From Alphaproteobacteria bacterium (GTDB taxonomy: Bacteria > Pseudomonadota > Alphaproteobacteria > M2410), in NCBI GenBank assembly GCA_006226415.1, contig SBGZ01000061.1, forward strand, positions 7,341 through 71,340: DNA of 64,000 bases, given 5' to 3'. The position numbers and the translations under genes were made by a program. Of this stretch, positions 313 through 25,508 are shown piece after piece. Each line of letters begins with the position of its first letter. The first letter of the stretch is position 1. Under the pieces are notes generated by a model. It was given only the letters and a program-made list of their open reading frames with translations. It was not told the DNA's origin and did not search any database.

Positions 313-1902
313 ATGTACCGCGTCCTTGCCTATTGCCTTGTCGCTTTTCCCCTTGCCGCCGGTGCGGTCTGGCTGGCCACGCGCGAGGGACGTTTTCAGG
401 CGGACTGGCTGGGTTACCACATCGAGATGAATACCTCGCTGGCGGTGGTGGTCTATGTGGCGCTCATTGCCCTGATCTTGCTGTTCGTGCGTTGGACCGG
501 TCTTGTGGTGCGGGGTCCTGAAACTTTTTTCGCCTATCGCCGCGAGCATCGCCGGGCTTTGGGGTTGTCGGCTCTGTCCAAAGGTTTGGTGGCGGTGGCG
601 GCGGGCGATTCTGCCGAAGTGCGCAAATTGGCACGTCAGGCGCACAAGCTGCTGGATGAACCGGCATTGACGCTTCTTTTAAGCGCGCAGGCGGCGCAGC
701 TCGATGGCAATGAGAAGAAAGCGGAAAGCTTTTACCGGGACATGCTGGACCAGGAAGCCACGGAGTTTTTAGGGCTGCGCGGTCTTTTCATGATCGCGGC
801 GCGGCGCGGTGACCGGGAAGCAGCTTATGATTACGCCAACCGCGCCTATGAGCTGCGCCCTGACACGCCCTGGGTTTTTGATGCGCTGTTTGAGCTCAAT
901 TCGTCTCGGCATAATTGGGCAGGCGCGGCGGATATGCTGGAAAGCTCCCTCAAGGCCAAACATATCGGACAGGATGTCGCCAAACGCAAGCGCGCTGTTC
1001 TGTATACGGAGCAAGCGCGCGCTGAAGACGAGGCTGGCAATGGTGCGGCGGCCCAGGAGATGGCGCAAAAGGCGTTGGGGCTTGCGCCGGGCTTTACGCC
1101 TGCGGCGCTGATCGCTGCGAAATATCTCATTCAGGCCGACCAGATGTGGAAGGCGGCGCAGACCCTGGAAACCGCCTGGAGCGTGGACCCGCATCCAGAA
1201 CTTGCCCGGCTCTATGGTAAGATCAAGGTCGGGGATGATGCCAAAGCGAAGGCGCGCTGGCTGCGCGGTCTGGCCAAGTTTAACAAGGACCATGTAGAAA
1301 GCCGGCTCTTGCGGGCACGGCAGAATGTGAAGCTGGGAGAATGGAAGGGCGCACGGCGGGCGCTTTCGGGGCTCGTTGAGAATTTTCCCAGTGTGCGGGT
1401 TTGTGAGCTGATGGCCGACATTGAAAAAGGTGAGCATGGTCGCTCGGAGGTGGTCTCAGAGGCGGCCCGGGCCTGGCTTGCCAAAGCGGTGCATGCGCCG
1501 CGCGATGCCCATTGGATGTGCGGCACCTGTGGCCGCGAGGCGCCGGATTGGTCGGCGGTTTGTCCCAATTGCGGGGCCTTTGACGATCTTTCCTGGCGGG
1601 CGCCGCAGATGACCACTTTGACACCGGTCGAAGAGGATGACGATTTAGAGGGGAATGGCCCGGTCGTTATTTTGACGGCGGATTCACCGCAGGAAGTGCC
1701 GCCGGTTGTCGATTCGGTACGTGTGCCGCCGCATGGGGGCGCCGCGCCCAAGGCGCCGCCAACCTATCGCAGTCGCCGCGAAGACGTTGGCAAGCAAGGG
1801 CTTGAGAACACGGATGCGGCGCCGGTGCCGGATGATCCAGGCCCTGGCGGAGAGGATCCTTATGATCCACGCCCGGAGAAGGTTTCGGGCCGCGACTTCT
1901 AG
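313..1902 (+). CDS. HemY-like protein: HemY_N-type membrane anchor, TPR region and C-terminal zinc ribbon
   Basis: Two N-terminal TM helices are followed by TPR-like helical repeats. A CGTCG...CPNCG zinc-ribbon and a Pro/Asp-rich tail complete the typical alphaproteobacterial HemY-like layout. Confidence 0.7.
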   Translation: MYRVLAYCLVAFPLAAGAVWLATREGRFQADWLGYHIEMNTSLAVVVYVALIALILLFVRWTGLVVRGPETFFAYRREHRRALGLSALSKGLVAVAAGDSAEVRKLARQAHKLLDEPALTLLLSAQAAQLDGNEKKAESFYRDMLDQEATEFLGLRGLFMIAARRGDREAAYDYANRAYELRPDTPWVFDALFELNSSRHNWAGAADMLESSLKAKHIGQDVAKRKRAVLYTEQARAEDEAGNGAAAQEMAQKALGLAPGFTPAALIAAKYLIQADQMWKAAQTLETAWSVDPHPELARLYGKIKVGDDAKAKARWLRGLAKFNKDHVESRLLRARQNVKLGEWKGARRALSGLVENFPSVRVCELMADIEKGEHGRSEVVSEAARAWLAKAVHAPRDAHWMCGTCGREAPDWSAVCPNCGAFDDLSWRAPQMTTLTPVEEDDDLEGNGPVVILTADSPQEVPPVVDSVRVPPHGGAAPKAPPTYRSRREDVGKQGLENTDAAPVPDDPGPGGEDPYDPRPEKVSGRDF

Positions 1903-2025
1903 ACCCGCGCGTCTCAAAATGGTAAAAGTCAATGCGCTTGGCGTTTCGGGGGGAATGCCAGGATTTTGCAGAATGTAGGCTCGCTGGGCCTTTAAAAGTT
2001 TGCGTTCTCGGGTAGTGGGGATCAC

Positions 2026-2970
2026 ATGCGTCGATCGATCATTGGTTTGCTGGCTTTTTTGGCTGTCCTAACCGGCGCTTTTCTTGGCCTTGCCGACTTT
2101 GACATACCGCTTGAGACCTTAAAGGGCCGCTACGGGGCGCCGCCCTCGCGCTTTGTTCAGCTGCCCGGCGGCATGACCGCGCATTACCGCGATCAGGGCA
2201 ATGTCAACGGCCGGGTGTTGGTGCTTTTGCATGGCTCCAACGACTCGCTTTTTACCTGGGAGCCCTGGGTCGCTGAGCTTGGGCAGGATTACCGCCTCAT
2301 CACCGTCGATCTGCCGGGACACGGACTGTCGTCATTTGCTGAAAACAATGTTTACACGAGCGATATCTATCTGAATTTTGTCTCGGAATTCATTGGCGTC
2401 TTGCAGCTCGACACTTTCGTGCTTGGCGGCAATTCGATGGGCGGCAAGATCGCCTGGCGCTACGCGCTCGACCATCCGGAAAAATTGGAAGCGCTTGTGT
2501 TGCTGGATGCCTCGGGGATTGATCTTGGGGGACCGCCGCAGGAAGAAGGCTTGCTCTATCAGGTCGCCGAAACGCCGGGGCTCAATAAAGTGCTGGATTA
2601 TGTGCTGCCTGAGAAGCTGGTTGCCAATACCCTGCGTGATGCCATCTATGATGATGATCTGGTAACCCAGGCCATGGTTGATCAGTATCATGATCTTTTG
2701 TTGCGTGAGGGGCGGCGTCAGGCTTCCAAGGCGCGTCTTTTAGCCCCTAAAGAGGCGCAGCCGACGGAGCGTCTTGGTGAGATTTCAGTTCCCACGCTTA
2801 TTCTCTGGGGCGAAGAAGACACTTATGTGTCTGTGGAGGCGGCATATATTTTCGATGCGCAGATCCCGAATTCAGCCCTGATTGTCTATCCAGAGGTCGG
2901 TCATCTGCCGATGGTGGAGGTGCCAGAGGATAGCGCCGCTTCGCTTAAGGCGTTTTTGATTCTCCACTAG
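2026..2970 (+). CDS. alpha/beta-fold hydrolase with a signal/anchor sequence
   Basis: Carries an HGSNDS oxyanion region, a GNSMGG nucleophile elbow and a C-terminal GH motif. Its stop codon TAG (2968-2970) lies inside the left 14-bp direct repeat of the downstream islet. Confidence 0.85.
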   Translation: MRRSIIGLLAFLAVLTGAFLGLADFDIPLETLKGRYGAPPSRFVQLPGGMTAHYRDQGNVNGRVLVLLHGSNDSLFTWEPWVAELGQDYRLITVDLPGHGLSSFAENNVYTSDIYLNFVSEFIGVLQLDTFVLGGNSMGGKIAWRYALDHPEKLEALVLLDASGIDLGGPPQEEGLLYQVAETPGLNKVLDYVLPEKLVANTLRDAIYDDDLVTQAMVDQYHDLLLREGRRQASKARLLAPKEAQPTERLGEISVPTLILWGEEDTYVSVEAAYIFDAQIPNSALIVYPEVGHLPMVEVPEDSAASLKAFLILH

Positions 2971-2976
2971 ATTGAC
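2963..2976. repeat. left copy of a perfect 14-bp direct repeat, tccactagattgac
   Basis: An identical 14-mer recurs at 4658-4671. The two copies sit exactly at the edges of the AT-rich segment. Confidence 0.85.
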
Positions 2977-3114
2977 TTTCTGAAACTTTACACCCAAAAA
3001 CAATTGTAATTCTGATTGTGCAATCTTAGATTGTCATAGTGCGATTTGAGTCGAATTATGACAACAATGTGTCGAATGTGAACGCTATCGAGAATGTCAA
3101 GGGAGTAGCAAACT

Positions 3115-4158
3115 GTGACTAACCAAGAATGGGAATACTCTGACACAGAAGATGCGCCGGAGATAGAAGCTGAGCCTAAGCTCGAATATGAAATCATGAA
3201 TTATCCGGCAGATACAACACTGCAAGGATACCAAGAAATGTGGGATCGGGGGGAGCTCTCGGTTCCCGAATTCCAAAGGGAATTTATCTGGGATCAGGTT
3301 AAGGCGAGTAAATTGATTGAGAGTTTCTTGCTAGGACTTCCTGTGCCCGGTGTCTTCCTTTTTAAAGAACGAGAAAGTTCTAAGTATCTAATAATTGATG
3401 GGCAGCAACGCATCACATCAATTGTCTCTTTTCTTAAAGGAGTAATTCACGACCGCGTATTTCGTTTAAAGAATGTGGACCGCCGTTGGGAGGGGAGGAC
3501 CTTTAAAGAATTGTCCGAAAGTGATCGATTTACACTAACCGGCCGAGTGTTAAGGGCGACAATAATTCAGCAAATAAGTCCTGATGATAAAACTAGTATC
3601 TATCATATTTTTGAACGCCTCAATACAGGAGGTGTAAATCTAAACCCTATGGAAATAAGACAATGTGTTTCATACGGTCCATTCGTTCAGGTATTGAAAG
3701 ATATGAATGAAGACGCGAGTTGGAGAAAGTTGATTGGGAAAGATAACATTGACAAGCGTCTTCGTGATGTTGAATTGATATTGAGATGTTTGGCTCTATC
3801 GATAAATGCGGACAATTATGAAAAGCCCATGAAAGGTTTTCTCAATAAGTATATGGAACGAGAGCGCGCCAATCCATCAGATTACGAGCAACTCAAAACA
3901 AACTTCTCTAACACGTGCACGGAAATCATTTCATGCCTTGGAGAAAAACCCTTTAATTTGAGAGGTAGGCTGAACTATGGCCTCTTAGACTCTATACTGG
4001 CGACGGCGCTCAGATTGGGTGTTCCCAAAGACCTTGATGTAGATCTAAATGAATTGCTTAAGAATGAGGAATTTCTGGACGCAATTACAAAAAATACTAG
4101 CGACCTTTCGGAAGTAGAATGCCGAATGCGCTTGGCGTCTGAAGCATTTGCTTCTTAG
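3115..4158 (+). CDS. stand-alone DUF262 (ParB/Srx-like, GmrSD N-terminal type) protein
   Basis: Has the PEFQREFIW and LIIDGQQRITSI motifs typical of DUF262. It uses a GTG start after an aaggga SD. No DUF1524/HNH tail is present. Confidence 0.85.
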   Translation: MTNQEWEYSDTEDAPEIEAEPKLEYEIMNYPADTTLQGYQEMWDRGELSVPEFQREFIWDQVKASKLIESFLLGLPVPGVFLFKERESSKYLIIDGQQRITSIVSFLKGVIHDRVFRLKNVDRRWEGRTFKELSESDRFTLTGRVLRATIIQQISPDDKTSIYHIFERLNTGGVNLNPMEIRQCVSYGPFVQVLKDMNEDASWRKLIGKDNIDKRLRDVELILRCLALSINADNYEKPMKGFLNKYMERERANPSDYEQLKTNFSNTCTEIISCLGEKPFNLRGRLNYGLLDSILATALRLGVPKDLDVDLNELLKNEEFLDAITKNTSDLSEVECRMRLASEAFAS

Positions 4159-4633
4159 TGGGGCATATGAGATGTCAAAATTGCTTAGGACAGGACTTGC
4201 GCTCAAAGAGATAGAATCATTTTTGGGCACGGTTGAACATGAATCCCCGTTGGTTGAGAATTATTTGGCTCAGTATCTTGCTGTGGCCTTTTACTCAGAA
4301 ATGGAGGAAAGAGTTAAGGCGGTTTATCAAGACAGAATTCAAGGAAGCGGTGATGTGAGAATAGCCAATTTTATCTTGAAGACTCAGGATGCAATGCTGG
4401 GGAGGGTTAGAAAATCGGACATAAAAGAAATGGCGAAATGTTTTGGAGATGACTGCAGAGACCGTTTCAATGCCGCTCTAAGCGAAGAATTGGTTCAGAA
4501 GTACCAAAACGTAATATTGAATCGACACGAAACAAGCCATACGACTGGAAGTAGTGTCACGATTGATGATGTAAAGGTCGCGGTTGAAGCGGCAGAAACG
4601 ATACTTGATGCCCTAAATTTGGCTATACAGTGA
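4148..4633 (+). CDS. HEPN-like small helical protein with an Rx4H motif
   Basis: Near the C-terminus the sequence NRHETSH gives an R-x4-H motif, and the composition looks all-helical. The TTG start at 4148 overlaps the DUF262 stop; an alternative ATG lies at 4172. It shares the AT-rich composition of the upstream gene. Confidence 0.6.
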   Translation: MLLSGAYEMSKLLRTGLALKEIESFLGTVEHESPLVENYLAQYLAVAFYSEMEERVKAVYQDRIQGSGDVRIANFILKTQDAMLGRVRKSDIKEMAKCFGDDCRDRFNAALSEELVQKYQNVILNRHETSHTTGSSVTIDDVKVAVEAAETILDALNLAIQ

Positions 4634-4657
4634 CGAATTTGTTAGCGCGAGGAAATT

Positions 4658-4671
4658 TCCACTAGATTGAC
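4658..4671. repeat. right copy of the 14-bp direct repeat, tccactagattgac
   Basis: Identical to 2963-2976. Composition returns to the GC-rich background immediately after it. Confidence 0.85.
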
Positions 4672-4739
4672 AATTTTTCTCCGCAAACATAGATTTTACC
4701 CCAGGTAGAAACTTTGGATTTTAACAGGAGGGTCAGGCG

Positions 4740-4826
4740 ATGGATTGCACCAACACCAGCAACTACCATCACTTTCGAACGCGTGGCCCCGTCTTGGCCC
4801 TGCAATCTCACGTTTTGCAGGGCTGA
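4740..4826 (+). CDS. possible 28-codon upstream ORF / leader peptide of the ABC-F gene
   Basis: An AGGAGG SD at 4726-4731 lies 8 nt before the ATG. The product is MDCTNTSNYHHFRTRGPVLALQSHVLQG. An 8-bp hairpin (4798-4822) lies inside its 3' end. It is absent from the track because it is under 60 aa. Confidence 0.3.
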   Translation: MDCTNTSNYHHFRTRGPVLALQSHVLQG

Positions 4827-4962
4827 TCAAAATATGAACTCCTAAACGGCATTCCTTGATCAGGCCTGTTCGGGTTGCAGCTTCGTTGAAGCAGCGACTT
4901 GTCGAACCCCAAAGAGCTTTTTACACGCCACAAAGCTCACGCCTTCTAAAGAGATCAAAAAA

Positions 4963-6480
4963 ATGTCTGTTCTTTCCCTTAAAGACGCCAGCTATCAGGC
5001 CCACGTTCAACTTTTTCAGTCGCTCACCTATTCGTTTGGCCGCGAGGACCGGGTGGGCCTTGTCGCGCTCAATGGCGCGGGCAAATCCACCTTCCTCAAG
5101 TGCCTGACCGGTGAGTTGGAATTTACATCCGGTGAGGTGACCTTCTCGCGCGGCGCGCGCATCGGCTATATGAGCCAAGAGGTCGAGGCTTCTCTCCTGG
5201 ACCTGACCTGCCGCGCGGCCATCACAAGTGCCTTGCCGGAGCCGCAGCGCGTTGACGAAAGTTGGCGGGTGGACATGGTTTTAGGCTCGCTCGGGTTTGA
5301 AGAGGCTCAATACGAACAGACCGTTGCCACGCTCAGTGGGGGCTGGCAGCGCCTTCTCTTGCTGGCGCGGATCTGGGTGACCGAGCCCGATATTCTGTTG
5401 ATGGATGAGCCGACCAATCACCTGGATCTTGAAAAGATTTTGTTTTTGGAGAACTGGCTTCTCACCTGGGCGGCGCATATGCCGGTCATTATTGCCAGTC
5501 ACGACCGGAGCTTTCTGGATGCGGTGACCAATCGCACGTTGTTTTTGCGGCCTGGCCAGTCACAATATTTCAGTTTGCCCTACACCCGCGCCAAGCAGGA
5601 ACTTGAGCGGGTGGATGCCGCGCTGGCGCTCGAACGGGAGCGGCGGCTTGGCGAGGCCGAGCAATTGCGCAAGCAATCGGCCAAACTGAAAAACATTGGC
5701 CTGAACTCCGGCAGCGACTTGTTGCAGAAGAAGCAAAAGCAGTTGCGCGAGCGGGCCGAGCGCATTGAAGAAAAGGTCGAAGAACTGCATGCGGAGCGGG
5801 CGGGCGAGATCCGCCTGGCCACAGGCGGCACCCATGCCAAGGTGTTGGTGCGGGTCGAAAACCTTGAGGTCGCGACACCGGACGGGCGGCTGCTCTTTAA
5901 GGTGCCGGCACTTGATATTGCGCAAGGGGACCGGCTCGTGCTGCTCGGACACAACGGCTGCGGCAAGTCGACCTTCGTCCGCCTCTTGCGCCGGGCGCTG
6001 GTGGCGGGGGAAGAGATCCCCGGCATCCGCGTGACCCCCTCGCTTAACACAGGCTATCTCGATCAGGCACTTTCCGATGTGCCGCCGGACGTGAGCTCGT
6101 TTGAGCATGTGGCCCATCGCGGGGAGAGCGACGCGCGCTGTCATGCGGCGCTTGCCAGTGCGGGCATCTCGTTTGACTGGCAGACAAAGCCGATGCGGCT
6201 CCTCTCCTGGGGACAGCGGGCACGGGTGGCCCTCCTGGCGCTCAGGTTTGAGGCACCCAATTTCTACCTGCTTGATGAGCCGACGAACCATGTGGATATC
6301 GCCGGTCAGGAGATGTTGGCCGACGAGATCAAGTCACGCGGTGCCGGCTCGGTGCTGGTCACCCACGACCGGACGTTCGCGCGGGAGACCGGCAACCGGT
6401 TTTTGGTAATTGAGGGCGGAAAACTCAGCGAAAGCGCCTCGCCGGAGAGCTATTTTGCCTCCGTCGCCGCTGAAATCTAA
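4963..6480 (+). CDS. ABC-F family ATPase: two ABC domains and no TM domain
   Basis: Contains two Walker A motifs (NGAGKST, GHNGCGKST), two signature motifs (LSGGWQ, LSWGQR) and two Walker B motifs (LLMDEPTNHLD, YLLDEPTNHVD). A charged coiled linker joins the domains. Confidence 0.9.
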   Translation: MSVLSLKDASYQAHVQLFQSLTYSFGREDRVGLVALNGAGKSTFLKCLTGELEFTSGEVTFSRGARIGYMSQEVEASLLDLTCRAAITSALPEPQRVDESWRVDMVLGSLGFEEAQYEQTVATLSGGWQRLLLLARIWVTEPDILLMDEPTNHLDLEKILFLENWLLTWAAHMPVIIASHDRSFLDAVTNRTLFLRPGQSQYFSLPYTRAKQELERVDAALALERERRLGEAEQLRKQSAKLKNIGLNSGSDLLQKKQKQLRERAERIEEKVEELHAERAGEIRLATGGTHAKVLVRVENLEVATPDGRLLFKVPALDIAQGDRLVLLGHNGCGKSTFVRLLRRALVAGEEIPGIRVTPSLNTGYLDQALSDVPPDVSSFEHVAHRGESDARCHAALASAGISFDWQTKPMRLLSWGQRARVALLALRFEAPNFYLLDEPTNHVDIAGQEMLADEIKSRGAGSVLVTHDRTFARETGNRFLVIEGGKLSESASPESYFASVAAEI

Positions 6481-6531
6481 TCTTGCAATGTGAGGCGGGC
6501 AGAAGTAGATAGGGCTACTTTTGCTCCCCTA

Positions 6532-6607
<76 letters not shown>

Positions 6608-6731
6608 TAATTCTTACATAAAAAGAAGCGCGGAGAGCCGCGGGTTATGAGCTCTTCCTGTGAATAACACGAAGGTCCGGTAAAAATGTGTTATCCTTTA
6701 AGCTGCGATATCGTGCGAAGGGGTGACGAGA

Positions 6732-8381
6732 ATGGCAAATCCATCAAAGTTTGGAATTTCACTTGTGGCGTTTGCCGCAATTTCTCTGGTAGGTGGTTGC
6801 GACCAGGTCGCTCAGAGCCCGCAGAGCATCGAAGCCGAACGTTCAGAGCATGAGGCATCTGTTGGCAAGACAGAAGCCGATCAGCCGATGTTGGTGCAGT
6901 TCTCCAACACATGCTCGGCACAGGTTCAAGACGACTTGAACACAGGCATCACTCTCCTGCACTCCTTTGAATACCCGGAGACGCTTCGGGTGTTTTCCAA
7001 TATAACAACGACGGACCCAAGCTGCGCAATTGCGAAGTGGGGCATTGCAATGAGCCTATGGCACCCCTTGTGGGCGCCTCCTTCGAACGCGGATCTCGAT
7101 CTTGGCGCCTCACTTCTTGATGAGGCTATCGCGATGGAGGCAAGTCCAAGAGAGAAAGCCTATTTGGGCGCCCTCCAGGAATTCTATTCCAGCAATGACC
7201 CTCAAAGCCATCGCCAGAGAGTGTTAAGGTATGAAGCTGCCATGGACAGTTTGCAGTCCAATTATCCTGATGATGTTGAAGCCAAGATCTTCCATGCGCT
7301 CGCTTTGCTAGCGACAGCAGACCCACACGACAAGACCTATTCTGTTCAAAACAGAGCCGGGAAAGCACTCAAGGAAATTGGCAGGCAGTACCCGACGCAC
7401 CCCGGTGTTTTGCACTATATAATCCACAGTTACGACTATCCGGGCCTTGCCCAAAATGCACTTGAGGAGGCCAAAACCTATGCCAAGGCCGCCCCAGACT
7501 CTGCTCACGCTCAACATATGCCCTCACATATCTTTACGAGACTGGGGCTTTGGGAGCTCTCACTTGCTTCAAATCATGATTCTACGAAGTCTGCAGAGGA
7601 ATATACTGTTACCGCAAATCTTCCAGGTCTCTATGACGAGGGATTACACAGTATTGATTATCTAATGTATGCAATGTTGCAAACTGGACGGGACGCAGAG
7701 GCTGCGGAACTGCTCAAAAAGATCCAAGGTATCGAGCATGCCTATCCAGAGAATTTCAAGGTCGCATTCACATTTGCATCTTCACCGTCTCGCTATGCGC
7801 TGGAGAGAAGACAGTGGGTCGAAGCGAGTGAACTTGAACTTATTCATGCCGACTTTCCGTGGGACAATTTTCTGTGGGCGAAGTCCATTCATCACTTCAC
7901 CAAAGGCATTGGCGCGGCTCGAAGCGGGCAGCCGGACACAGCTCTGCAAGAACTGGAAACCCTGAGAAAAATAAGAGACGATCTGCCACCTGCGACGCTT
8001 CCTTACTGGCGCGAGGAAGTGGATGTTCAGATAGATGCCCTCAATTCCTGGATCGAAGCGGGCAAAGGTAATGAGCAGGCGGCTATTGCTCTTGCTGAGA
8101 AAGCTGCGGACAAGGAGGATGCTGTAGACAAGCACCCTGTAACCCCGGGTGAGGTCTTACCCGCCCGGGAATTGCTTGCGGACCTTCTCTTTGAATTTGG
8201 TCATCACGAAGCGGCACTGGAGGCATACAGGACAGTTCTAAAATCCTCACCAAATCGCCTCAACGCGCTGATAGGCGCGGAAAAGGCTGCCAGGGAGTTA
8301 GGCAACTCTGACCTAGCAGACGACTACAAAAACACGATCATTGAGCAGATCCAATACGGAGATCGGGAAATTCGAATTTGA
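6732..8381 (+). CDS. TPR-like helical-repeat lipoprotein of unknown function
   Basis: Has a lipobox (SLVGGC) after a signal peptide, followed by a long helical-repeat body. ATG 6732 follows an aagggg SD; the track starts at GTG 6723. GC is lower than the flanks. Confidence 0.7.
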   Translation: MANPSKFGISLVAFAAISLVGGCDQVAQSPQSIEAERSEHEASVGKTEADQPMLVQFSNTCSAQVQDDLNTGITLLHSFEYPETLRVFSNITTTDPSCAIAKWGIAMSLWHPLWAPPSNADLDLGASLLDEAIAMEASPREKAYLGALQEFYSSNDPQSHRQRVLRYEAAMDSLQSNYPDDVEAKIFHALALLATADPHDKTYSVQNRAGKALKEIGRQYPTHPGVLHYIIHSYDYPGLAQNALEEAKTYAKAAPDSAHAQHMPSHIFTRLGLWELSLASNHDSTKSAEEYTVTANLPGLYDEGLHSIDYLMYAMLQTGRDAEAAELLKKIQGIEHAYPENFKVAFTFASSPSRYALERRQWVEASELELIHADFPWDNFLWAKSIHHFTKGIGAARSGQPDTALQELETLRKIRDDLPPATLPYWREEVDVQIDALNSWIEAGKGNEQAAIALAEKAADKEDAVDKHPVTPGEVLPARELLADLLFEFGHHEAALEAYRTVLKSSPNRLNALIGAEKAARELGNSDLADDYKNTIIEQIQYGDREIRI

Positions 8382-8481
8382 AGTCTTGTTACTCGCCAGG
8401 CAAATTCTGAGTTTCCAAGTTTCGATTGAAACTGGTTGATTTGGCGCGATCCTGATCGAAACCCAGATGGCCTGAATTTCA

Positions 8482-8530
8482 CATTCGTAATGCGTCATGT
8501 CGGTGGACCCTAGTCCACTCAGCGGCACCA
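8482..8530 (+). pseudogene. decayed duplicate of the 3' half of tRNA-Thr, from the anticodon loop to CCA
   Basis: It shares cattcgtaatgcgt, gtcggtgg and agtccactcagcggcacca with 6566-6607, but the variable loop and T arm are disrupted. The homology continues into the downstream hairpin. Confidence 0.75.
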
Positions 8531-8584
8531 TTTCCATGACGATAAAAGAAGTGCGGAAGCCGCGGTTTTTCTTTGTTGCTGGCC

Positions 8585-9496
8585 TCACGTCATCTGCATG
8601 AATTGATGTATCATGGGAATGATGATGTGCGATGCGTCTTCCTGGCAGAAGTGGCTGACACCTTTAAGGCGTGTCACGGGCGCGTCCGGATAAATCGCTG
8701 AGAAATCGGCGATCGCCGTTTCCGGATCTATCGCGCGGTCATCCATGCCGTAGACCAGCATGGCGGGTTTTGATTTCAGGGCCTCCAAGTTTCCTTCCGT
8801 CAGTCCGGCCATAATGTAATCTCGGATGCGGCCATAGTGAACATCGAGCGGAAACTCAATCGCGCCCTTGCAGGAAGCGCGGTCCGGGAAGGGCGCAGAG
8901 TAGGCGTCAATCCAGGTCTGGTCGACGGCGGCGGAATTGTTGAAGCCAACAATTTTCATGACCGAGAGAACTGTGGAGCCGAGTTCGCCGACGATACCCT
9001 CGAGGGTTCCGGCTTTTTCGTGCTTTTCGATCCACTGAAACCAAGGCGTCTTTTCTTCTCTGGGTGGCAAACCGCCGTAGCCAAAGAGCGTGTTCATCAA
9101 TACGACGCGCTTGATGCGTTCCGGACAGCGAATGGTGAAAGCGCCCATGATCGGACCGCCCCAGTCTTGACCGATCATTGTGATGTCCTTCAAGTCCAGG
9201 TCCTCGATCAGACGGATCAAGTTTTCGGTGTGGGTCTTGAGTGTGTAGACCTTGTCCTGAGGGGTTTCGCTTTTGCCAAAGCCCATATGGTCGGGCACGA
9301 CAACGCGATAATGCTTCGACAGCTCTTTAATGAAGTTGCGATAGAGATAGCCCCAAGTGGGCTCGCCGTGGAGACAGACCACCACCTCGCCCTCCCGTGG
9401 GCCTTCATCCACATAATGCTGTTTAAAGCCGTTTACATTTGAAAAATGCGGTTTGTAAGGCCAGGTGCCGTTGAAGGTTTCGTCTGCAGGGATCAT
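8585..9496 (-). CDS. haloalkane dehalogenase-like alpha/beta hydrolase (DhlA-type)
   Basis: LHGEPTWGYLYR and GQDWGG (Asp nucleophile) closely resemble the DhlA-type motifs HGEPTWSYLYR and VQDWGG. I prefer ATG 9496 (MIPADETF...) over the GTG at 9589 used by the track. Confidence 0.8.
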   Translation of the reverse strand: MIPADETFNGTWPYKPHFSNVNGFKQHYVDEGPREGEVVVCLHGEPTWGYLYRNFIKELSKHYRVVVPDHMGFGKSETPQDKVYTLKTHTENLIRLIEDLDLKDITMIGQDWGGPIMGAFTIRCPERIKRVVLMNTLFGYGGLPPREEKTPWFQWIEKHEKAGTLEGIVGELGSTVLSVMKIVGFNNSAAVDQTWIDAYSAPFPDRASCKGAIEFPLDVHYGRIRDYIMAGLTEGNLEALKSKPAMLVYGMDDRAIDPETAIADFSAIYPDAPVTRLKGVSHFCQEDASHIIIPMIHQFMQMT

Positions 9497-9595
9497 GGGA
9501 GTGTTTCTCTTTTTTGTTGGCGGGGCGTAGTCAGGTGGCGGCTCTGCGGCTGCCAGGCAGGGGCGCCGGAAAGCCCCCTTAAGCGGCACCGGCTT

Positions 9596-11836
9596 TCAGT
9601 CTTCTCTTAAACTTGCCATCAGCTCTTCCGGGACCGGCAGGAGACCGGCGTCTTCGGCGGCTTTGCGTTCTGCAGCGAGGTGGGCATCTGACTGCTCCAG
9701 CAGCGCTTTGTACCTTGGATCGTCCTGAAGTTCTTCAAAAATGACATCCGCGATCAATTGGGAAAATATCCAGTGGGAGCGTGCCCACTGATCTTCCAAT
9801 GCTTCCAGGGCGGCTTCTTTGTTTCCTTCCGCCATTGCAATGCATGCGCTTAGATAGTCCGTCGTAAAATAGATACCGTCCGGGTCGGCAAGAAGTGTCT
9901 GGTGGATGTATTTCAGTTTATCCAGGATGAGAGCAGCACGCGCCCGCTTCCCAAGCTTTCGGCTTAGATAGAGAGACAGGGTCGCGCCATTGCAGCTTGC
10001 CCCAATGTCATAGTTTGGTCCCCAGCCGTCAGGGTCGGGGTCGTCAAAGTACATGAGCAGGTCGAGGGCTTCCTGGTACTCCCCTTCGCGGGCCTTCCAG
10101 TCGGCCAGAGTGAGCGCGATTTCATGGTTTTTCGCAGCCCCCTCCCGGGCTTCGATTTGCTGGCAAAGACGCCGTGCTGCACTCTCATCTCCAGCTAGCG
10201 TGTATAATGACAACGCCATAACTGGATCAAATTCTTCGAAGACGGCGATATATCCAAGCATGCCAGCAAGGGCCTGGGTGTAATAGAGCGCAACGGCATT
10301 TGCGGTCAGCGCTTCCAAATTCAGCTGCAGGGTCATCGCCTGCGCATAGTGTCCCTTATGCATGGCGATGAGTGATCGACAATAATCAATAAACAGGGAT
10401 CCAGGATGGGATGCCTCCAGCTGGCGGAGAGTGGCGTTGGCGTCGTCCCAATTCTGACGGTACAGGTGTTCATTAAAGACACTCGTAAGGGCGAGCAAGG
10501 AGACCGGGTCTCGCTCGAGTGCCTTGCGCGCACTCGAAAAGACCGGTGCCGAAGGATCCCCGCCCATTTTATGGGCCTGAGTTAAAAGATTGTAACCACG
10601 CGAGTAATTCGGATTGAGGTTGATCGCCATTTCAGCTGAGGTCTGGGCTTTTGCCAGATCGCCGTTCAGCATGTAATACAAGCTCCAAATTCCATGTACC
10701 TCAGCGGCAGTGGGGTCGAGACCTTGTGCCTTTTCCAGAAGAGGCCAGGCGGCGGCCAAAGCTTCTTTCAAAGGGGTCCGGCCATAACAGGAGCCATCGT
10801 CGGAGAGAAGCAGCATGGCATCGGCCAATCCGATAATTGCAGGCGCATAGTCCGGGTCGGATATTAGAGCGGCCTCAAAGTGCTGTTTGCCCGATTCTAT
10901 ATCTTCCCGCGTGCGTTTCCTCAGAAACTGTTGACCCAGCATATAATGCTCATAGGCGCCGACGCTGGCACTGCGGGCCGATTGCGGTGCCTGCATGGTG
11001 CCGCCACCTAGGATGTGATCTTTCAGTTCGGCGACAATGGCGGCGGAGATCTCGTCTTGCACGGCGAAGATGTCATCAAGGGTGCGGTCGTAGGTATCGG
11101 ACCAAAGGTGCGAAGAGTTGCCGGTTTCAATCAGCTGGGCGGTGATGCGTACCCGGTTGCCGGCTTTGCGGACCGAGCCCTCCAGAACATAGGCGACCTG
11201 CAGAAGCTCACCGATCTCAGCGACAGACTTGTCGGTGCCTTTGAAAGCAAAGGACGAGGTGCGGGCAATGACGGTCATCTCCTTGATTTTGGAGAGCAGA
11301 TTGAGCAGTTCCTCGGAAATGCCGTCGGAGAAAAACTCCTGCTCCGGATCCGATGACATATTGACGAAAGGCAGGACGGCGATGGAAGCGTCTGACTTGG
11401 TCTTGCCCGACTTCGGCAATGAGATCGCTTCATTGGGGGTGAGCCGACCGGAGGTCAGATGATGGTCGAGCGCTTGCAGGAGGTCATTGATGCAAGGGGC
11501 CTTGCCGCCGGACCAGCCGGAGAAGTCGATGGTCTGAAGCTGCCGAAAGCCCATGGGCGAACGAATGCCGTCCAGCGAGATCGGTAGCAGGTTACCGGTT
11601 TCCAGCGCCAGGTCCGCTTCGTCGGCAACCCAACGGGATTTGATCGCGTTCGGCGACCAGGCCACCAGCACGACACGGGCGTGGCGCACCTCGGTCTCGA
11701 TTTCTGAGGAAAATCTTGTGCCGCCTTTGAGCTGCCGGTCCCACCAGACGGAATAGCCGGCGCCCTCGAGCTCGGCCACAAGGGGCTCAATGCGCGCGCG
11801 ATCCTCGCTGGCGTAACTGACAAAAATATCGGCCAA
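9596..11836 (-). CDS. TIR-domain protein with a cyclase-type sensor-linker block and C-terminal TPR array (paralog 1)
   Basis: The N-terminus ADIFVSYASEDRA...SRWVADE is TIR-like. The middle block ASIAVLPFVNMSSDPEQ...GSVRKAGNRVRITAQLI follows, then TPR-like helical repeats at the C-terminus. The start codon is TTG. Confidence 0.85.
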   Translation of the reverse strand: MADIFVSYASEDRARIEPLVAELEGAGYSVWWDRQLKGGTRFSSEIETEVRHARVVLVAWSPNAIKSRWVADEADLALETGNLLPISLDGIRSPMGFRQLQTIDFSGWSGGKAPCINDLLQALDHHLTSGRLTPNEAISLPKSGKTKSDASIAVLPFVNMSSDPEQEFFSDGISEELLNLLSKIKEMTVIARTSSFAFKGTDKSVAEIGELLQVAYVLEGSVRKAGNRVRITAQLIETGNSSHLWSDTYDRTLDDIFAVQDEISAAIVAELKDHILGGGTMQAPQSARSASVGAYEHYMLGQQFLRKRTREDIESGKQHFEAALISDPDYAPAIIGLADAMLLLSDDGSCYGRTPLKEALAAAWPLLEKAQGLDPTAAEVHGIWSLYYMLNGDLAKAQTSAEMAINLNPNYSRGYNLLTQAHKMGGDPSAPVFSSARKALERDPVSLLALTSVFNEHLYRQNWDDANATLRQLEASHPGSLFIDYCRSLIAMHKGHYAQAMTLQLNLEALTANAVALYYTQALAGMLGYIAVFEEFDPVMALSLYTLAGDESAARRLCQQIEAREGAAKNHEIALTLADWKAREGEYQEALDLLMYFDDPDPDGWGPNYDIGASCNGATLSLYLSRKLGKRARAALILDKLKYIHQTLLADPDGIYFTTDYLSACIAMAEGNKEAALEALEDQWARSHWIFSQLIADVIFEELQDDPRYKALLEQSDAHLAAERKAAEDAGLLPVPEELMASLRED

Positions 11837-23273: not shown

Positions 23274-25508
23274 TTAGGTGGTCTCGCTGGAAAAGTTCCG
23301 GTCTATTTGTTCCAAGTTTTCCGGGCTCAATGGGAGGAGGCCTGAGAGCTGCGCTTTTTCTTTCTCGCGTTCTGAATGCGTGCGATCCCGATCTTGAAGT
23401 TCCTGGAACTCTTCTTCCTGCCATAACGGCTTGAGCAATGGGGTATTGATCAAAACCTTGGCCATGCCTGGCGCCTGGCGCGCAAACTGCCGAGCTTCGC
23501 GGATGGCAACGGCGTGTTCGCCATCCATCATACAAATGCAGGCGCCAATAAAATGGGTACCGCGATGAACGCCCTCGTGGTCGGTCAGATAGACCGAATA
23601 GACTTCTTTGAGCCTGCGCTTGTCGGCATCGGCGGCAGGGGCGTCGCCCTTTCGCGCCTTAATGGCCCAAAGCGTGATCGCGCCGAGGCAGAATTCGTTA
23701 ATTTCAAACAAAGGTCCCCATCCCGATGTTTCTCGGGGTTCCAGCTCGGTTAGAATTTCGTGGGCGGCCTCAATCCGATCATTTAGAAAATGCCAATAGG
23801 CAAGGATGGTCGGCGTTGCATCGGGAACCTCATTCTGCAAAACGGCGGCCATGCGATTGGCGTCCTCGGTCATGCCAAAGAGCGTGTAAATGTTGAAGGC
23901 GGAGCCCGCGTCAAGATGTTCGACGGTTGGGCCATCGCCGAGAGCCGTCATTACCGTTTGCAGGCAGGTACTCCACTGCGTTTTATTAAAGACGTTGAGC
24001 CTAGAAAGGCAGATACTGAGGCATTTTCGAAGCTCGCCCCGGTTCCATGCAATATGAAATGCGCCCCATTGACTGAACATTGAATTGGGCTCAACGACCT
24101 CAATACGTTCAAGCAGTTGTTGTGCTTCGTCATAGCGCATGCGTTGGGGCAGTTCTTCCAAGAGATTGAGAAGGTCCACGCCGGATACGGGGTCGAGGCT
24201 CAGGGCTTTTTGCAAGGACCTGACAACCAGTGCGCGCGGGTTGGCGCCCCGTTTCAGGATCAGGCCCAGCAAACGATAGCCGCGGGCGCAATTGGCATTG
24301 ATGCTGATGGCCTTTTCAACATGGGTTTGCGCTTCGGCCATATTGTGGCCCATGTAGAAGTAGAGGGCCCAAGAGAGAAGGCACTCGTCGGAATTAGGGT
24401 TCAGGCGGGCAGACTTTTCGAGATAGGGCCGAGCTTCGATCAAAGTCTCTTCAACCGGGCGCGTGCCATAACAAATGGGGTGGTTGCTTGATAATAAAAT
24501 GGCGTCGGCCATACCGACTAATGAAGGGACAAATTCTGAATCCGCCTGCAGGGAGATTTCGAAATGGCGATGTGCCTCCTTGATGCTCGCGACGGTACGG
24601 GTCTTGAGGCTTTGCTGGCCAAGCAGATATTCTTCATAGGCCGTAATGGAATGGGCGCGGGTCACGGCTGGCGCGACCGGGTTTACGGCAATGCGCTCTT
24701 TTAAAGCATCCACGATGGCGGCGGCGATTTCGTCCTGAATGGCGAAGACGTCTTCAAGCACCCGGTCATAGGTTTCTGACCAGAGATGACTGTCGTCGGC
24801 CACTTTGATGAGCTGAGCTGTGATACGCACCCGATTGCCGGCTTTGCGCACCGAGCCTTCCAGCACATGCGCCACGCCAAGGATCTCGCCCATAGTTGAG
24901 ATCGACAGGTTCTTGTCTTTGAACTGAAACGACGAGGTGCGGGCTGTGACTTTCAAATTACCGATCTTGGCCAATAAATTGAGGAGTTCTTCGGAGATAC
25001 CGTCTGAAAAGAACGCCTGTTCCGGGTCAGATGACATATTCACGAAAGGCAGAACCGCGATGGAAGCCTCGGGGGTTGCAGATCCGGTGGGCGACCCGGT
25101 TCGGCCGGCGGCCTTGTTTTGTGAAACATGAAAATGGATGGCCTGATCCAGGGTTGTTAAGGCGTGACTGTCCTCGCCCAATTGCCATGTCGTAAAATCA
25201 ATGGTCTGGATTTGGCGAAATCCGATTGGGGCATCCAGAACGTCAAATTTTATGGGGATCAGCTTGGCGGCAGCAAGTGCGCAATCCGCCTCATCTGTCA
25301 CCCACCGGGACTTTCGTGATTCCTTGGTCCAGACGACGATGACGGCTTTGGCTTGTTCGAGCTCTCTTTCGATTTCTTCTGAGAATCGTGAGCCACCGCG
25401 CAGGTCGTTGTCCCACCAGACGGAGTAACCTTTTTGTTCAAGGATTTCGACGAGTGGTTTGACCTCAGCGTGGTCGTGACTGGAGTAGCTGACAAAAATA
25501 TCCGCCAA
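23274..25508 (-). CDS. TIR / sensor-linker / TPR protein (paralog 3)
   Basis: Begins ADIFVSYSSHDHA...SRWVTDE, followed by ASIAVLPFVNMSSDPEQAFF...GSVRKAGNRVRITAQLI and a TPR-like C-terminus. The TTG start is forced by an in-frame TGA three codons upstream. Confidence 0.85.
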   Translation of the reverse strand: MADIFVSYSSHDHAEVKPLVEILEQKGYSVWWDNDLRGGSRFSEEIERELEQAKAVIVVWTKESRKSRWVTDEADCALAAAKLIPIKFDVLDAPIGFRQIQTIDFTTWQLGEDSHALTTLDQAIHFHVSQNKAAGRTGSPTGSATPEASIAVLPFVNMSSDPEQAFFSDGISEELLNLLAKIGNLKVTARTSSFQFKDKNLSISTMGEILGVAHVLEGSVRKAGNRVRITAQLIKVADDSHLWSETYDRVLEDVFAIQDEIAAAIVDALKERIAVNPVAPAVTRAHSITAYEEYLLGQQSLKTRTVASIKEAHRHFEISLQADSEFVPSLVGMADAILLSSNHPICYGTRPVEETLIEARPYLEKSARLNPNSDECLLSWALYFYMGHNMAEAQTHVEKAISINANCARGYRLLGLILKRGANPRALVVRSLQKALSLDPVSGVDLLNLLEELPQRMRYDEAQQLLERIEVVEPNSMFSQWGAFHIAWNRGELRKCLSICLSRLNVFNKTQWSTCLQTVMTALGDGPTVEHLDAGSAFNIYTLFGMTEDANRMAAVLQNEVPDATPTILAYWHFLNDRIEAAHEILTELEPRETSGWGPLFEINEFCLGAITLWAIKARKGDAPAADADKRRLKEVYSVYLTDHEGVHRGTHFIGACICMMDGEHAVAIREARQFARQAPGMAKVLINTPLLKPLWQEEEFQELQDRDRTHSEREKEKAQLSGLLPLSPENLEQIDRNFSSETT

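What the first reader, a model, noticed from the sequence alone, without database searches (positions are those of the whole stretch)
2963..4671. 1.7-kb AT-rich islet with perfect 14-bp direct repeats, inserted exactly on a stop codon and lacking any recombinase
The sequence tccactagattgac occurs at 2963-2976 and again at 4658-4671, 1695 bp apart. These positions coincide with the drop from the GC-rich background to roughly 40% GC (by eye) and the return to it. The left copy contains the TAG stop of the alpha/beta hydrolase gene, so the duplication preserves the host gene's end. The unit carries only two cargo genes, with no integrase or transposase and no terminal inverted repeats that I can see. 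A partial third copy (ttagattgtca, about 3036-3046) lies just inside the left end and could be a recombinase-binding relic. This resembles a minimal att-flanked, cis-mobilisable cassette that depends on a trans-acting recombinase. It shows how a defence-type module can be delivered as a tiny islet.
Basis: seen in the sequence. Interest (0 to 1): 0.7.

Follow-up and report, generated by a model that had tools for sequence, protein, structure and literature searches.

The report
Two-gene phage-defence cassette, repeat-flanked insertion
A 1.7-kb piece of foreign DNA carrying a known type of two-gene anti-phage system (DUF262 plus HEPN) was inserted between two host genes and left a 14-base duplication; the insertion is real and a related genome shows the empty site, but nothing indicates a dedicated attachment site or helper recombinase, so it is a neat but fairly ordinary case.

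Summary
TCCACTAGATTGAC occurs exactly twice in the window (2963-2976, 4658-4671). It brackets a 1,681-bp segment with GC 0.42 and GC3 0.40, against 0.59 and 0.63-0.74 in the flanks. A related MAG (L003, flanking proteins about 90% identical) has the empty site, with one copy of the motif and homology breakpoints exactly at the repeat. The cargo is a PD-T4-2-type defence pair: a DUF262/GmrSD_N ParB-like NTPase (3115-4158) and a small PF18735 HEPN protein (4172-4633). There is no recombinase and there are no terminal inverted repeats. The duplication keeps both the hydrolase stop codon and the -35 box (TTGACA) of the downstream leader-peptide/ABC-F promoter. The att-site, trans-recombinase reading is not supported by comparison. 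The closest cassette relatives (up to 68% aa) sit as similar 1.6-2-kb low-GC islets at unrelated sites, with unrelated non-coding ends and no shared repeat. Only 3 of 149 neighbouring ORFs are integrases. The few other repeat-flanked copies have repeats of different sequence and length (19, at least 105, about 250 bp). This fits recombinase-independent insertion with target duplication, as described for restriction-modification genes, or a short-homology crossover of a small circle. It is a new member of known kinds and of moderate interest.

The parts
2026..2970 (+). Host alpha/beta-hydrolase gene (left flank). Its TAG stop (2968-2970) lies inside the left repeat copy.
   Evidence: Pfam Abhydrolase_1 3.1e-28. 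The orthologue in L003 is 90% identical and has the same C-terminus...AFLILH*.
2963..2976 (+). Left copy of the 14-bp direct repeat TCCACTAGATTGAC (junction duplication).
   Evidence: It aligns to the single copy in the empty site L003 2246-2259.
2977..3114 (+). Left non-coding end of the insert. It contains the palindrome GATTGTGCAATC (3014-3025), the partial third copy ttagattgtca (3026-3036), a promoter-like TTGTCA-17-AATTAT (3031-3059), and the inverted repeat TTGTCATA...TATGACAA (3031-3044 / 3051-3064).
   Evidence: (I15). Promoter or operator function is inferred, not shown. This region is not conserved in the closest relative cassette L127.
3115..4158 (+). DUF262 / GmrSD_N (ParB-like NTPase, DGQQR motif) protein of 347 aa, with no DUF1524 nuclease domain. 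It corresponds to the PD-T4-2_A / NsnA-like component.
   Evidence: Pfam PF03235 4.2e-28. PADLOC NsnA 3.8e-62 and PD-T4-2_A 1.6e-48. AF2 model pLDDT 81; best PDB fold match is BrxU at 7.6e-6, followed by ParB CTPases and SspE. 5286 homologues; N-terminal residues are conserved from position 1, so the GTG 3115 start is preferred over the 320-aa database call.
4172..4633 (+). Small HEPN protein of 153 aa with the R-x4-H motif RHETSH. It is the predicted RNase effector and corresponds to the PD-T4-2_B-like component.
   Evidence: Pfam PF18735 HEPN_RiboL-PSP 9.6e-8, 32.6 bits against a cut-off of 28.4. A 150-170-aa ORF with R[HN]xxxH follows the DUF262 gene in most family loci. There is no PADLOC hit. 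The single-sequence AF2 model is all-helical but of low confidence, pLDDT 45.
4634..4657 (+). 24-bp right end of the insert, with no hairpin or attC-like structure. Together with the first 3 bases of the repeat it forms the palindrome GGAAATTTCC.
   Evidence: Read directly from the sequence. No significant inverted repeat was found.
4658..4671 (+). Right copy of the 14-bp direct repeat.
4667..4695 (+). Host promoter-like site TTGACA-17-TAGATT. Its -35 box is rebuilt by the right repeat copy. It lies upstream of the leader ORF and the ABC-F gene.
   Evidence: 10 of 12 matches. The empty site has TTGACA-17-TAAATT at the same place. Function is inferred.
4740..4826 (+). Host 28-codon leader ORF (MDCTNTSNYHHFRTRGPVLALQSHVLQG) upstream of the ABC-F gene. 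It belongs to the right flank, not to the insert.
   Evidence: 26 of 28 residues identical in L003.
4963..6480 (+). Host ABC-F ATPase (right flank). It is not part of the cassette and is not an NsnB.
   Evidence: Pfam ABC_tran x2. NCBIfam ribo_prot_ABC_F 1.4e-85, below the cut-off. It is present next to the empty site in L003 at 90% aa identity.

Best explanation
A 1,695-bp horizontally acquired insertion consists of 1,681 unique bp plus one extra copy of a 14-bp host sequence. It delivered a PD-T4-2-type two-gene anti-phage module into the very tight junction between the stop codon of an alpha/beta-hydrolase gene and the -35 box of the promoter for a leader-peptide/ABC-F operon.

**Function (inferred from family knowledge).** The DUF262 ParB-like NTPase with its C-terminal helical domain senses invading, possibly modified, DNA. 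The small HEPN protein is the RNase effector, giving abortive-infection-type defence.

**Mobility.** The unit is non-autonomous. The 14-bp repeat is the scar of a single insertion event, not a reusable family-wide att site. The most likely route is recombinase-independent. One option is insertion with target duplication, as described for restriction-modification units. The equivalent option is a single crossover at a short homology between the chromosome and a small circular carrier; tiny plasmids carrying this same gene pair exist.

**Why this event was tolerated.** The duplication preserves both the hydrolase stop codon (left copy) and the ABC-F promoter -35 (right copy). The two 14-bp copies could later allow precise loss by slippage.

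**Shown:** the insertion, the empty site, the cargo identity, and the absence of a recombinase or TIRs. **Inferred:** the defence mechanism and the insertion route.
For: - **Empty site with breakpoints at the repeat:**
- **Foreign composition:**
- **Cargo:**. The PD-T4-2 domain content (DUF262 plus PF18735 HEPN) is taken from PMC10952713 and PMC12065111.
- **No shared att.** The 12-mer core is absent from all other family loci. The closest relative L127 (68% aa) is a roughly 2-kb low-GC islet with unrelated ends and no repeat of 8 bp or more. In 43 family loci the longest flanking exact repeat is 8-11 bp, the same as controls, except in the window, L074 and L113.
- **Variable-length repeats in relatives.** L113 has about 220-290 bp of imperfect repeat. 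L097 has a 105-bp identical overlap that closes a 2,767-bp cycle made of the argS 3' part plus the cassette.
- **Few integrases nearby:** 3 of 149 flanking ORFs.
- **Same-slot swap without repeats.** L033 carries the DUF262-HEPN pair where relatives L121/L122 carry MazE-PemK, with breakpoints at the TGA stop and the ATG start.
- **Small plasmid vehicle:** the 3.9-kb E. coli plasmid pLR-27_3 carries DUF262 plus HEPN.
- **Precedent.** RM units, including type IV, inserted with target duplication and no mobility genes: PMC2853133. Defence hotspots with no detectable mobile element: PMC10121019.
Against: - A 14-bp identity is also the typical size of a tyrosine-integrase common core.
- 14 bp is shorter than the more-than-30-bp criterion used to define 'long target duplication'.
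- A non-random partial third copy (TAGATTGTCA) and GATTG-containing palindromes lie about 50 bp inside the left end. They could be protein-binding sites of an attP arm. I can only tentatively explain them as promoter or operator elements.
- No donor molecule or second copy of this exact unit was found, so the state of the 14-mer in the incoming DNA is unknown.
- Only one closely related genome (L003) was available.
- Most family loci show no repeats at all, so no single route is demonstrated for the family.
Confidence: 0.55

Rival explanations
1. The islet is a minimal att-flanked, cis-mobilisable element (CIME-like). The 14-mer is the common core of attL/attR. A tyrosine integrase encoded elsewhere, on an ICE, IME or phage using the same attB, integrates and excises it in trans. 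The partial third copy and the GATTG palindromes are recombinase or excisionase binding sites.
For: - Perfect 14-bp repeat matching a single-copy site in the empty locus.
- Core length is typical of lambda-like integrases (established knowledge).
- The target is at the 3' end of a gene, with the gene end restored.
- The third copy is statistically non-random and there are palindromes at the left end.
- A neighbouring tRNA-Thr relic shows that integrase-type events occurred in this region.
- One distant relative of the pair sits next to a tyrosine recombinase on a Hymenobacter plasmid.
Against: - There is no integrase in the islet, and no other clearly foreign region in the 64-kb window.
- The core is not found in any other family locus, and the attP-like junction is not found in viral contigs.
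- The closest cassette relatives have unrelated ends and no repeats.
- Integrases are rare near family members.
- There is no inverted core-type half-site pair around a 6-8-bp overlap in the 14-mer (inspection).
- Only 24 bp lie between the HEPN stop and the core, which leaves little room for an attP arm on that side.
Confidence: 0.22
2. The islet is the decayed remnant of a larger integrase-bearing genomic island. The island integrated by site-specific recombination at this 14-bp core. Internal deletions later removed the integrase and all other genes, leaving only the defence pair between intact attL and attR.
For: - The repeat and empty site fit this as well as they fit the CIME model.
- The window has another recombinase-less relic bounded by a tRNA-Thr 3' repeat about 2 kb away.
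Against: - The unit is extremely compact: 138 bp before and 24 bp after the two genes.
- The repeats are perfect and the GC is un-ameliorated, so repeated deletions trimming exactly to a functional two-gene operon seem unlikely.
- Family relatives at unrelated sites are equally compact 1.6-2-kb islets. This argues that the two-gene unit itself is what arrives.
Confidence: 0.1
3. The cassette was ancestral to the lineage, and L003 lost it by precise deletion between the two 14-bp repeats. On this view the 'empty site' is secondary.
For: Deletion between short direct repeats is a well-known process and would leave exactly one copy, as seen in L003.
Against: - This does not remove the need for an earlier insertion that created the repeat. 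A chance 14-bp repeat lying exactly at both edges of a compositionally foreign segment is about 4e-9 unlikely.
- Cassette GC3 of 0.40 against 0.63-0.74 argues for recent arrival.
- More distant relatives (L123-L126) also lack it.
Confidence: 0.08
4. The unit is a non-autonomous DDE transposon or MITE-like element, or an integron cassette, mobilised in trans, with the 14 bp as the target-site duplication.
For: Direct repeat flanking the insert, with a single copy at the empty site.
Against: - No terminal inverted repeats: the ends TTTCTGAAAC... and ...GAGGAAATT share only about 4 bases.
- A 14-bp target-site duplication is unusual for DDE transposases.
- There is no attC-like structure in the 24-bp 3' end.
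- No second copy in the window or in any fetched locus.
Confidence: 0.03

Closest known systems
PD-T4-2 anti-phage system (Vassallo et al. 2022; domain content as summarised in PMC10952713)
   Same: It is a two-gene operon. The first gene is a roughly 350-aa DUF262/GmrSD_N protein without DUF1524. It is followed immediately by a small PF18735-type HEPN protein.
   Different: The HEPN partner does not reach the PADLOC PD-T4-2_B model. The DUF262 protein scores higher against NsnA than against PD-T4-2_A. Identity to enterobacterial plasmid examples is only about 35%. Activity is untested.
Menshen (NsnABC)
   Same: The DUF262 protein has the NsnA-like architecture, a ParB-DUF262 domain plus a helical C-terminal domain. 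It gives the best PADLOC hit, 3.8e-62.
   Different: There is no NsnB (ABC ATPase plus DUF3696) and no NsnC. The adjacent ABC-F gene is a host gene that is also present at the empty site.
Insertion of restriction-modification units with long, variable target duplication and no mobility genes (Nobusato 2000; Furuta, Abe and Kobayashi 2010, PMC2853133)
   Same: A defence gene unit without a recombinase is flanked by a direct repeat that is single-copy in the empty genome. Type IV-like systems are included in that work. Relatives of this cassette show long repeats (L113, L097).
   Different: Here the duplication is only 14 bp, below their more-than-30-bp criterion and within the range of site-specific recombination cores.
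CIMEs (cis-mobilisable elements flanked by att sites, lacking integration and conjugation genes; ICEberg 2.0, PMC6323972)
   Same: The unit is bounded by direct repeats equal to the target site and has no recombination genes.
   Different: No cognate ICE, IME or integrase using this site is known, and there is no tandem accretion with an autonomous element. At 1.7 kb it is far smaller than typical CIMEs. Mobility is untested.
Defence hotspots without detectable mobile elements (E. coli hotspot #37, P. aeruginosa core defence hotspots; PMC10121019)
   Same: A defence system sits between conserved host genes with no identifiable mobilisation genes. The same slot holds different small cassettes in relatives: L033 has this pair and L121/L122 have MazEF.
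   Different: Here a precise junction duplication is visible. This is not a reported feature of those hotspots.

Membership tests
PD-T4-2 | DUF262/GmrSD_N protein lacking the DUF1524 HNH nuclease domain | tested here: met
   The only Pfam hit is PF03235, at 4.2e-28. PADLOC PD-T4-2_A gives 1.6e-48 over nearly the full length.
PD-T4-2 | Adjacent co-oriented small HEPN (PF18735) protein | tested here: met
   PF18735 at 9.6e-8, 32.6 bits against a cut-off of 28.4, with the RHETSH motif. The gene starts 14 bp after the DUF262 stop. Caveat: no hit to any PADLOC model, including PD-T4-2_B.
PD-T4-2 | Protects against phage (T4 in the original screen) | not testable with these tools
   This needs a phage challenge.
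Menshen (NsnABC) | NsnA-like ParB-DUF262 protein | tested here: met
   PADLOC NsnA 3.8e-62.
Menshen (NsnABC) | NsnB ABC-ATPase/DUF3696 and NsnC effector immediately downstream | tested here: not met
   The downstream gene is a 153-aa HEPN. The next ATPase is a host ABC-F that is conserved at the empty site.
GmrSD / BrxU type IV restriction enzymes | DUF262 fused or paired with a DUF1524 His-Me nuclease | tested here: not met
   No DUF1524 in either protein. The fold match to BrxU is confined to the ParB-like part, TM 0.27.
CIME / att-flanked element mobilised in trans | Flanked by direct repeats identical to a single-copy target in the empty site; no recombination genes inside | tested here: met
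CIME / att-flanked element mobilised in trans | The same att core is used by a related autonomous element or integrase, or the same unit recurs with the same core | tested here: not met
   The core 12-mer occurs only in the same-organism contigs and in the empty site. The attP-like 19-mer is absent from viral contigs. Relatives have different ends. The sampling of this lineage is thin.
CIME / att-flanked element mobilised in trans | Excision to a circle and re-integration | not testable with these tools
   This needs read-level data or PCR.
Insertion with long target duplication (RM-type mobility) | Defence unit without mobility genes, flanked by a direct repeat that aligns once in the empty genome | tested here: met
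   The definition is taken from PMC2853133.
Insertion with long target duplication (RM-type mobility) | Duplication longer than 30 bp (operational criterion of Furuta et al.) | tested here: not met
   The repeat is 14 bp and does not extend with mismatches.
DDE transposon / MITE | Terminal inverted repeats inside the target duplication | tested here: not met
   No inverted repeat at the ends.
Integron gene cassette | attC recombination site at the 3' end | tested here: not met
   Only 24 bp follow the HEPN stop, and no imperfect palindrome of attC type is present.

The most novel reading that the evidence does not exclude
DUF262-HEPN (PD-T4-2-like) pairs could be a class of selfish, recombinase-free, self-inserting defence cassettes. 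On this reading they enter chromosomes at gene boundaries through target duplications of very variable length: 14 bp here, about 250 bp in L113, and 105 bp or more up to about 700 bp in L097. They might use the ParB-like nuclease/NTPase or small circular intermediates, and they could leave again through the repeats. This would extend Kobayashi's 'virus-like life cycle' idea from restriction-modification systems to abortive-infection modules. It would also explain how thousands of 1.6-2-kb low-GC islets arise in high-GC Alphaproteobacteria.
Probability: 0.1. Interest if true: 0.7.

Novelty: new member of a known kind. Interest (0 to 1): 0.35.

Why it matters
This is a clean, base-resolved example of how a complete anti-phage system can arrive as a 1.7-kb unit with no mobility gene. 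The filled and empty sites are both in hand, and the junction duplication keeps both neighbouring host signals intact. Many defence systems sit in hotspots with 'no identifiable mode of mobilisation' (PMC10121019). Junction scars like this one, together with the variable repeats seen around relatives, are the kind of evidence needed to decide between trans-acting recombinases and recombinase-independent insertion. On its own, however, this is a single event in a poorly sampled lineage. Both the cargo type and the insertion pattern already have precedents.

Tried and rejected
1. **Chance repeat.** Rejected. 14-mer pairs are common in the window, but this one coincides with independent homology breakpoints.
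2. **Exact look-ups of the hydrolase and ABC-F proteins**, to find empty-site variants in the same population. Nothing is on record. The DUF262 look-up returned only two short same-organism contigs with the filled site.
3. **Donor search.**
   - tblastn against plasmids and phages gave at most 38% identity.
   - The attP-like 19-mer gave 0 hits in viral contigs.
4. **Shared att among relatives.** Rejected.
5. **Integrase detection by jackhmmer** from one seed over 843 flanking ORFs found only the seed, so the method was insensitive. It was replaced by a Pfam census of 149 flanking ORFs.
6. **Menshen.** Rejected: no NsnB or NsnC, and the adjacent ABC-F is a host gene.
7. **Other element types.** Transposon or MITE, integron cassette and tRNA-targeting island were rejected for this islet. 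A XerCD/dif-type module was rejected by eye only, because there is no dif-like 11-6-11 motif.
8. **Rfam.** There is no known RNA family in 2700-8700 apart from the tRNA.
9. **PDB sequence search** found nothing for either protein. The HEPN single-sequence AF2 model was too poor to use.
10. **Ambiguous or chance repeats in relatives.** The L074 19-bp repeat is a palindromic, REP-like sequence lying beyond the GC boundary, so it is ambiguous. The L033 16-bp and L068 13-bp matches lie away from the boundaries and are probably chance.
11. **More relatives of the host lineage.** The next hydrolase homologues are 65% identical or less, and their downstream synteny differs.
Full report
**1. Observation**

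The 14-mer TCCACTAGATTGAC occurs at 2963-2976 and 4658-4671. There is no further match in the window, even with two mismatches.

A repeated 14-mer is not remarkable in itself. The 64-kb window contains 44 repeated 14-mers, about 25 independent pairs. What makes this pair significant is independent evidence.

- A genome-collection scan with the neighbouring hydrolase found a related MAG contig (L003, SBHG01000165.1). Its hydrolase, HemY and ABC-F proteins are 86-90% identical to the window's.
- In L003 the hydrolase stop is followed directly by the ABC-F leader region...cttattctGCACTAGATTGACAtttaaattcc....
- blastn shows that L003 1-2262 matches window 727-2979, and L003 2297-4195 matches window 4710-6607 (alignment).

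Homology therefore breaks exactly at the two repeat copies, and the empty site has one copy.

The enclosed 1,681 bp have GC 0.416, against 0.589 on the left. This is the only strongly low-GC stretch in the window. GC3 is 0.40-0.41, against 0.63-0.74 for the neighbours.

The TAG of the hydrolase (2968-2970) lies inside the left copy. The 'partial third copy' is real but lies at 3026-3036. TAGATTGWCA occurs only there and at the right junction in the whole window, where 0.06 is expected.

**2. Anatomy**

The insert holds two co-oriented genes and almost nothing else. There are 138 bp of upstream non-coding DNA and 24 bp downstream.

*Gene 1 (3115-4158, 347 aa).*
- It is a DUF262/GmrSD_N protein with the DGQQR motif and no DUF1524 domain (Pfam 4.2e-28).
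- In PADLOC it matches NsnA (3.8e-62) and PD-T4-2_A (1.6e-48).
- An AlphaFold model built on 26 homologues (pLDDT 81) finds BrxU as its best solved neighbour. ParB CTPases and SspE follow. This is consistent with a ParB/Srx-like NTPase plus a helical C-terminal domain.

*Gene 2 (4172-4633, 153 aa).*
- It passes the Pfam threshold for PF18735 HEPN_RiboL-PSP.
- It carries the R-x4-H motif RHETSH.
- It has no PADLOC hit. Its single-sequence model was too poor to use.

DUF262 plus a PF18735 HEPN is the published domain content of PD-T4-2 (PMC10952713; PMC12065111).

Menshen is excluded. There is no NsnB or NsnC, and the ABC-type ATPase next door is a host ABC-F that is also present at the empty site.

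No recombinase domain, terminal inverted repeats, attC-like structure or tRNA is present at the junctions.

**3. The target site**

In the empty site the hydrolase stop codon is followed after two bases by TTGACA-17 nt-TAAATT. Next come a Shine-Dalgarno sequence, a 28-codon leader ORF that is 26/28 identical between the two genomes, and then the ABC-F gene.

In the window the right repeat copy rebuilds TTGACA-17-TAGATT. The 14-bp duplication thus leaves an intact stop codon on the left and an intact -35 box on the right. In so tight a junction, an insertion without duplication would have damaged one of the two. This may be why this particular event survived (inference).

**4. Relatives of the cassette**

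The DUF262 protein has more than 5,000 homologues. The nearest non-self hits are 60-68% identical and come mostly from Sphingomonadaceae and other Alphaproteobacteria. On plasmids and phages the best identity is 38% or less.

*Genomic contexts.* The same pair recurs as a 1.6-2-kb islet of about 0.38-0.45 GC between ordinary genes of 0.55-0.73 GC genomes.
- L033 lies between an acyl-CoA dehydrogenase and a CoA-transferase.
- L037 is in Sphingomonas cannabina.
- L127 lies between an ABM-domain gene and an FAA hydrolase.

*No shared ends.* Their non-coding ends are unrelated to the window's. The 12-mer core CACTAGATTGAC is found in none of them.

*Repeat survey.* In 43 loci with both flanks, the longest exact flanking repeat was 8-11 bp, the same as reversed-sequence controls, with three exceptions: the window (14 bp), L074 (19 bp, a palindromic REP-like sequence lying beyond the GC boundary, so ambiguous) and L113.

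A gapped comparison added two points.
- L113 is flanked by about 220-290 bp of imperfect direct repeat.
- L097 is a 2,872-bp contig whose ends are identical over 105 bp. They close a 2,767-bp cycle made of the 3' part of argS plus the cassette. This means either a long target duplication or a circle or tandem array.

*Neighbourhood census.* Among 149 ORFs lying within 3.5 kb of 46 family cassettes, only three were Phage_integrase. The rest were RM and other defence genes or unrelated housekeeping genes.

*Same-slot swap.* In L033's relatives (94% identical flanking gene), the very same gap holds a MazE-PemK pair instead. Homology ends exactly at the TGA stop and resumes at the ATG start, and there is no repeat longer than about 4 bp.

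*A small vehicle.* A 3.9-kb E. coli plasmid carries a DUF262-HEPN pair as its main cargo.

**5. Mechanism**

*Function.* By analogy with GmrSD/BrxU/SspE and the proposals for Menshen, the DUF262 protein is most likely an NTP-dependent sensor of invading DNA. The HEPN protein is most likely the RNase effector. This is inference; nothing here tests it.

*Mobility: what the comparative data say.*
- They speak against a family-wide att site and against a nearby recombinase.
- They show that, when repeats are present, they differ in sequence and range from 14 bp to hundreds of bp.
- This is the pattern that Kobayashi's group described for restriction-modification units, type IV included: insertion with variable target duplication and no mobility genes (PMC2853133).
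- An equivalent route is a single crossover between the chromosome and a small circle at a short chance homology. By my own estimate, a 1.7-kb circle has roughly 25 co-oriented chance exact 14-mer matches to a 4-Mb genome, so such a site is not hard to find.

I therefore rank a recombinase-independent, one-off insertion first (0.55).

*Rival 1: trans-acting integrase (CIME) model, 0.22.* It remains possible for three reasons. A 14-bp core is typical for tyrosine integrases. The third partial copy and the GATTG palindromes at the left end are non-random and not fully explained by my promoter or operator reading. The lineage is too thinly sampled to exclude other users of this site.

*Other rivals.*
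- A decayed larger island (0.10) is disfavoured by the extreme compactness seen here and in relatives.
- Secondary loss in L003 (0.08) does not change the origin of the repeat.
- A transposon or integron cassette (0.03) fails its defining features.

**6. Comparison with known systems and novelty**

The cargo is a new, divergent member of the PD-T4-2 type. The insertion pattern falls between two known categories: site-specific att scars and RM-style target duplication. It also resembles defence hotspots with no detectable mobile element (PMC10121019). Nothing here is categorically new.

The case is valuable mainly as a base-resolved filled/empty pair. It also hints that this very abundant cassette family repeatedly lands at gene boundaries without a recombinase.

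**7. Verdict**

| Item | Verdict |
|---|---|
| Observation | Confirmed |
| Interest | About 0.35 |
| Novelty | New member of a known kind |

Noticed in passing
window 6532-9581 (tRNA-Thr 6532-6607; repeat 8435-8531): A second recombinase-less islet lies 2 kb away. The 3' part of tRNA-Thr(CGT) is repeated about 1.9 kb downstream: a 14-mer at 6561/8482 and a 20-mer at 6589/8512. A single 552-aa TPR-like ORF (6723-8381, GC about 0.50) lies in between. Compared with L003 the window has about 3 kb extra here. L003 has its own tRNA-3'-like relic at 6647-6741. More distant relatives (L124-L126) have the hydrolase followed directly by tRNA-Thr with no ABC-F. The hydrolase-to-tRNA-Thr interval is therefore a variable hotspot.
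   Followed up: partly
window 4667-6480; L003 2254-4067: The ABC-F ATPase is preceded by a conserved promoter-like site, a Shine-Dalgarno sequence and a 28-codon leader ORF that is 26/28 identical in L003. This is the layout expected for translation-attenuation control of ribosome-protection-type ABC-F genes. NCBIfam ribo_prot_ABC_F scores 288 bits, below the 380-bit cut-off.
   Followed up: partly
L033 5909-7513 vs L121 4212-4968 and L122 4236-4975: The same intergenic slot, between an acyl-CoA dehydrogenase and a CoA-transferase, holds a DUF262-HEPN pair in one genome (1,603 bp, GC 0.39). In two relatives it holds a MazE-PemK toxin-antitoxin pair (about 750 bp, GC 0.64). The breakpoints fall exactly on the stop and start codons, and the HEPN stop overlaps the next gene's ATG.
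   Followed up: partly
L097 1-2872 (Ga0187893_10085497): The contig ends are 100% identical over 105 bp. The sequence reads as a 2,767-bp cycle made of about 700 bp of the 3' part of argS plus the DUF262-HEPN cassette. This could be a long target duplication, a tandem amplification or an excised circle.
   Followed up: partly
L113 about 4600-4790 and 6600-6870: A DUF262-HEPN cassette, whose DUF262 gene looks disrupted, is flanked by about 220-290-bp imperfect direct repeats of about 88-90% identity with indels. It sits between a PpiC rotamase gene and an N6/N4 methylase-containing RM unit.
   Followed up: partly
family loci L033-L127: Across hosts of 0.55-0.76 GC the cassette stays at about 0.38-0.56 GC and is nearly always below its flanks. 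This holds even though family members are only 35-68% identical to the window's DUF262 protein. The low GC is therefore either maintained or reflects constant turnover.
   Followed up: no
L128 (NZ_AP027509.1, E. coli plasmid pLR-27_3, 3,948 bp): A tiny plasmid has DUF262 plus HEPN genes as its main cargo, alongside a VbhA-family antitoxin and a short rep annotation. This is a possible kind of circular vehicle for such cassettes.
   Followed up: no
window 3115-3195: The public annotation of the DUF262 protein (P0001, 320 aa) starts 27 codons downstream of GTG 3115. Homologues conserve residues from position 1 (W6, T11, E12, E16, E18, Y25, E26), so the longer form is probably the real one.
   Followed up: partly
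window 2937-2962: A terminator-like hairpin plus T-run (CGCTTCGCTTAAGGCG TTTTTGATTC) lies inside the last 30 nt of the hydrolase coding sequence, just before the repeat.
   Followed up: no
window 30162/31839; 11157-11817 vs 24835-25489: Another exact 14-mer pair (TTACATTGACGCGG) lies 1,677 bp apart. There is also a set of 14-mers offset by about 13.67 kb, which indicates paralogous genes related to the L003 761-aa gene family.
   Followed up: no
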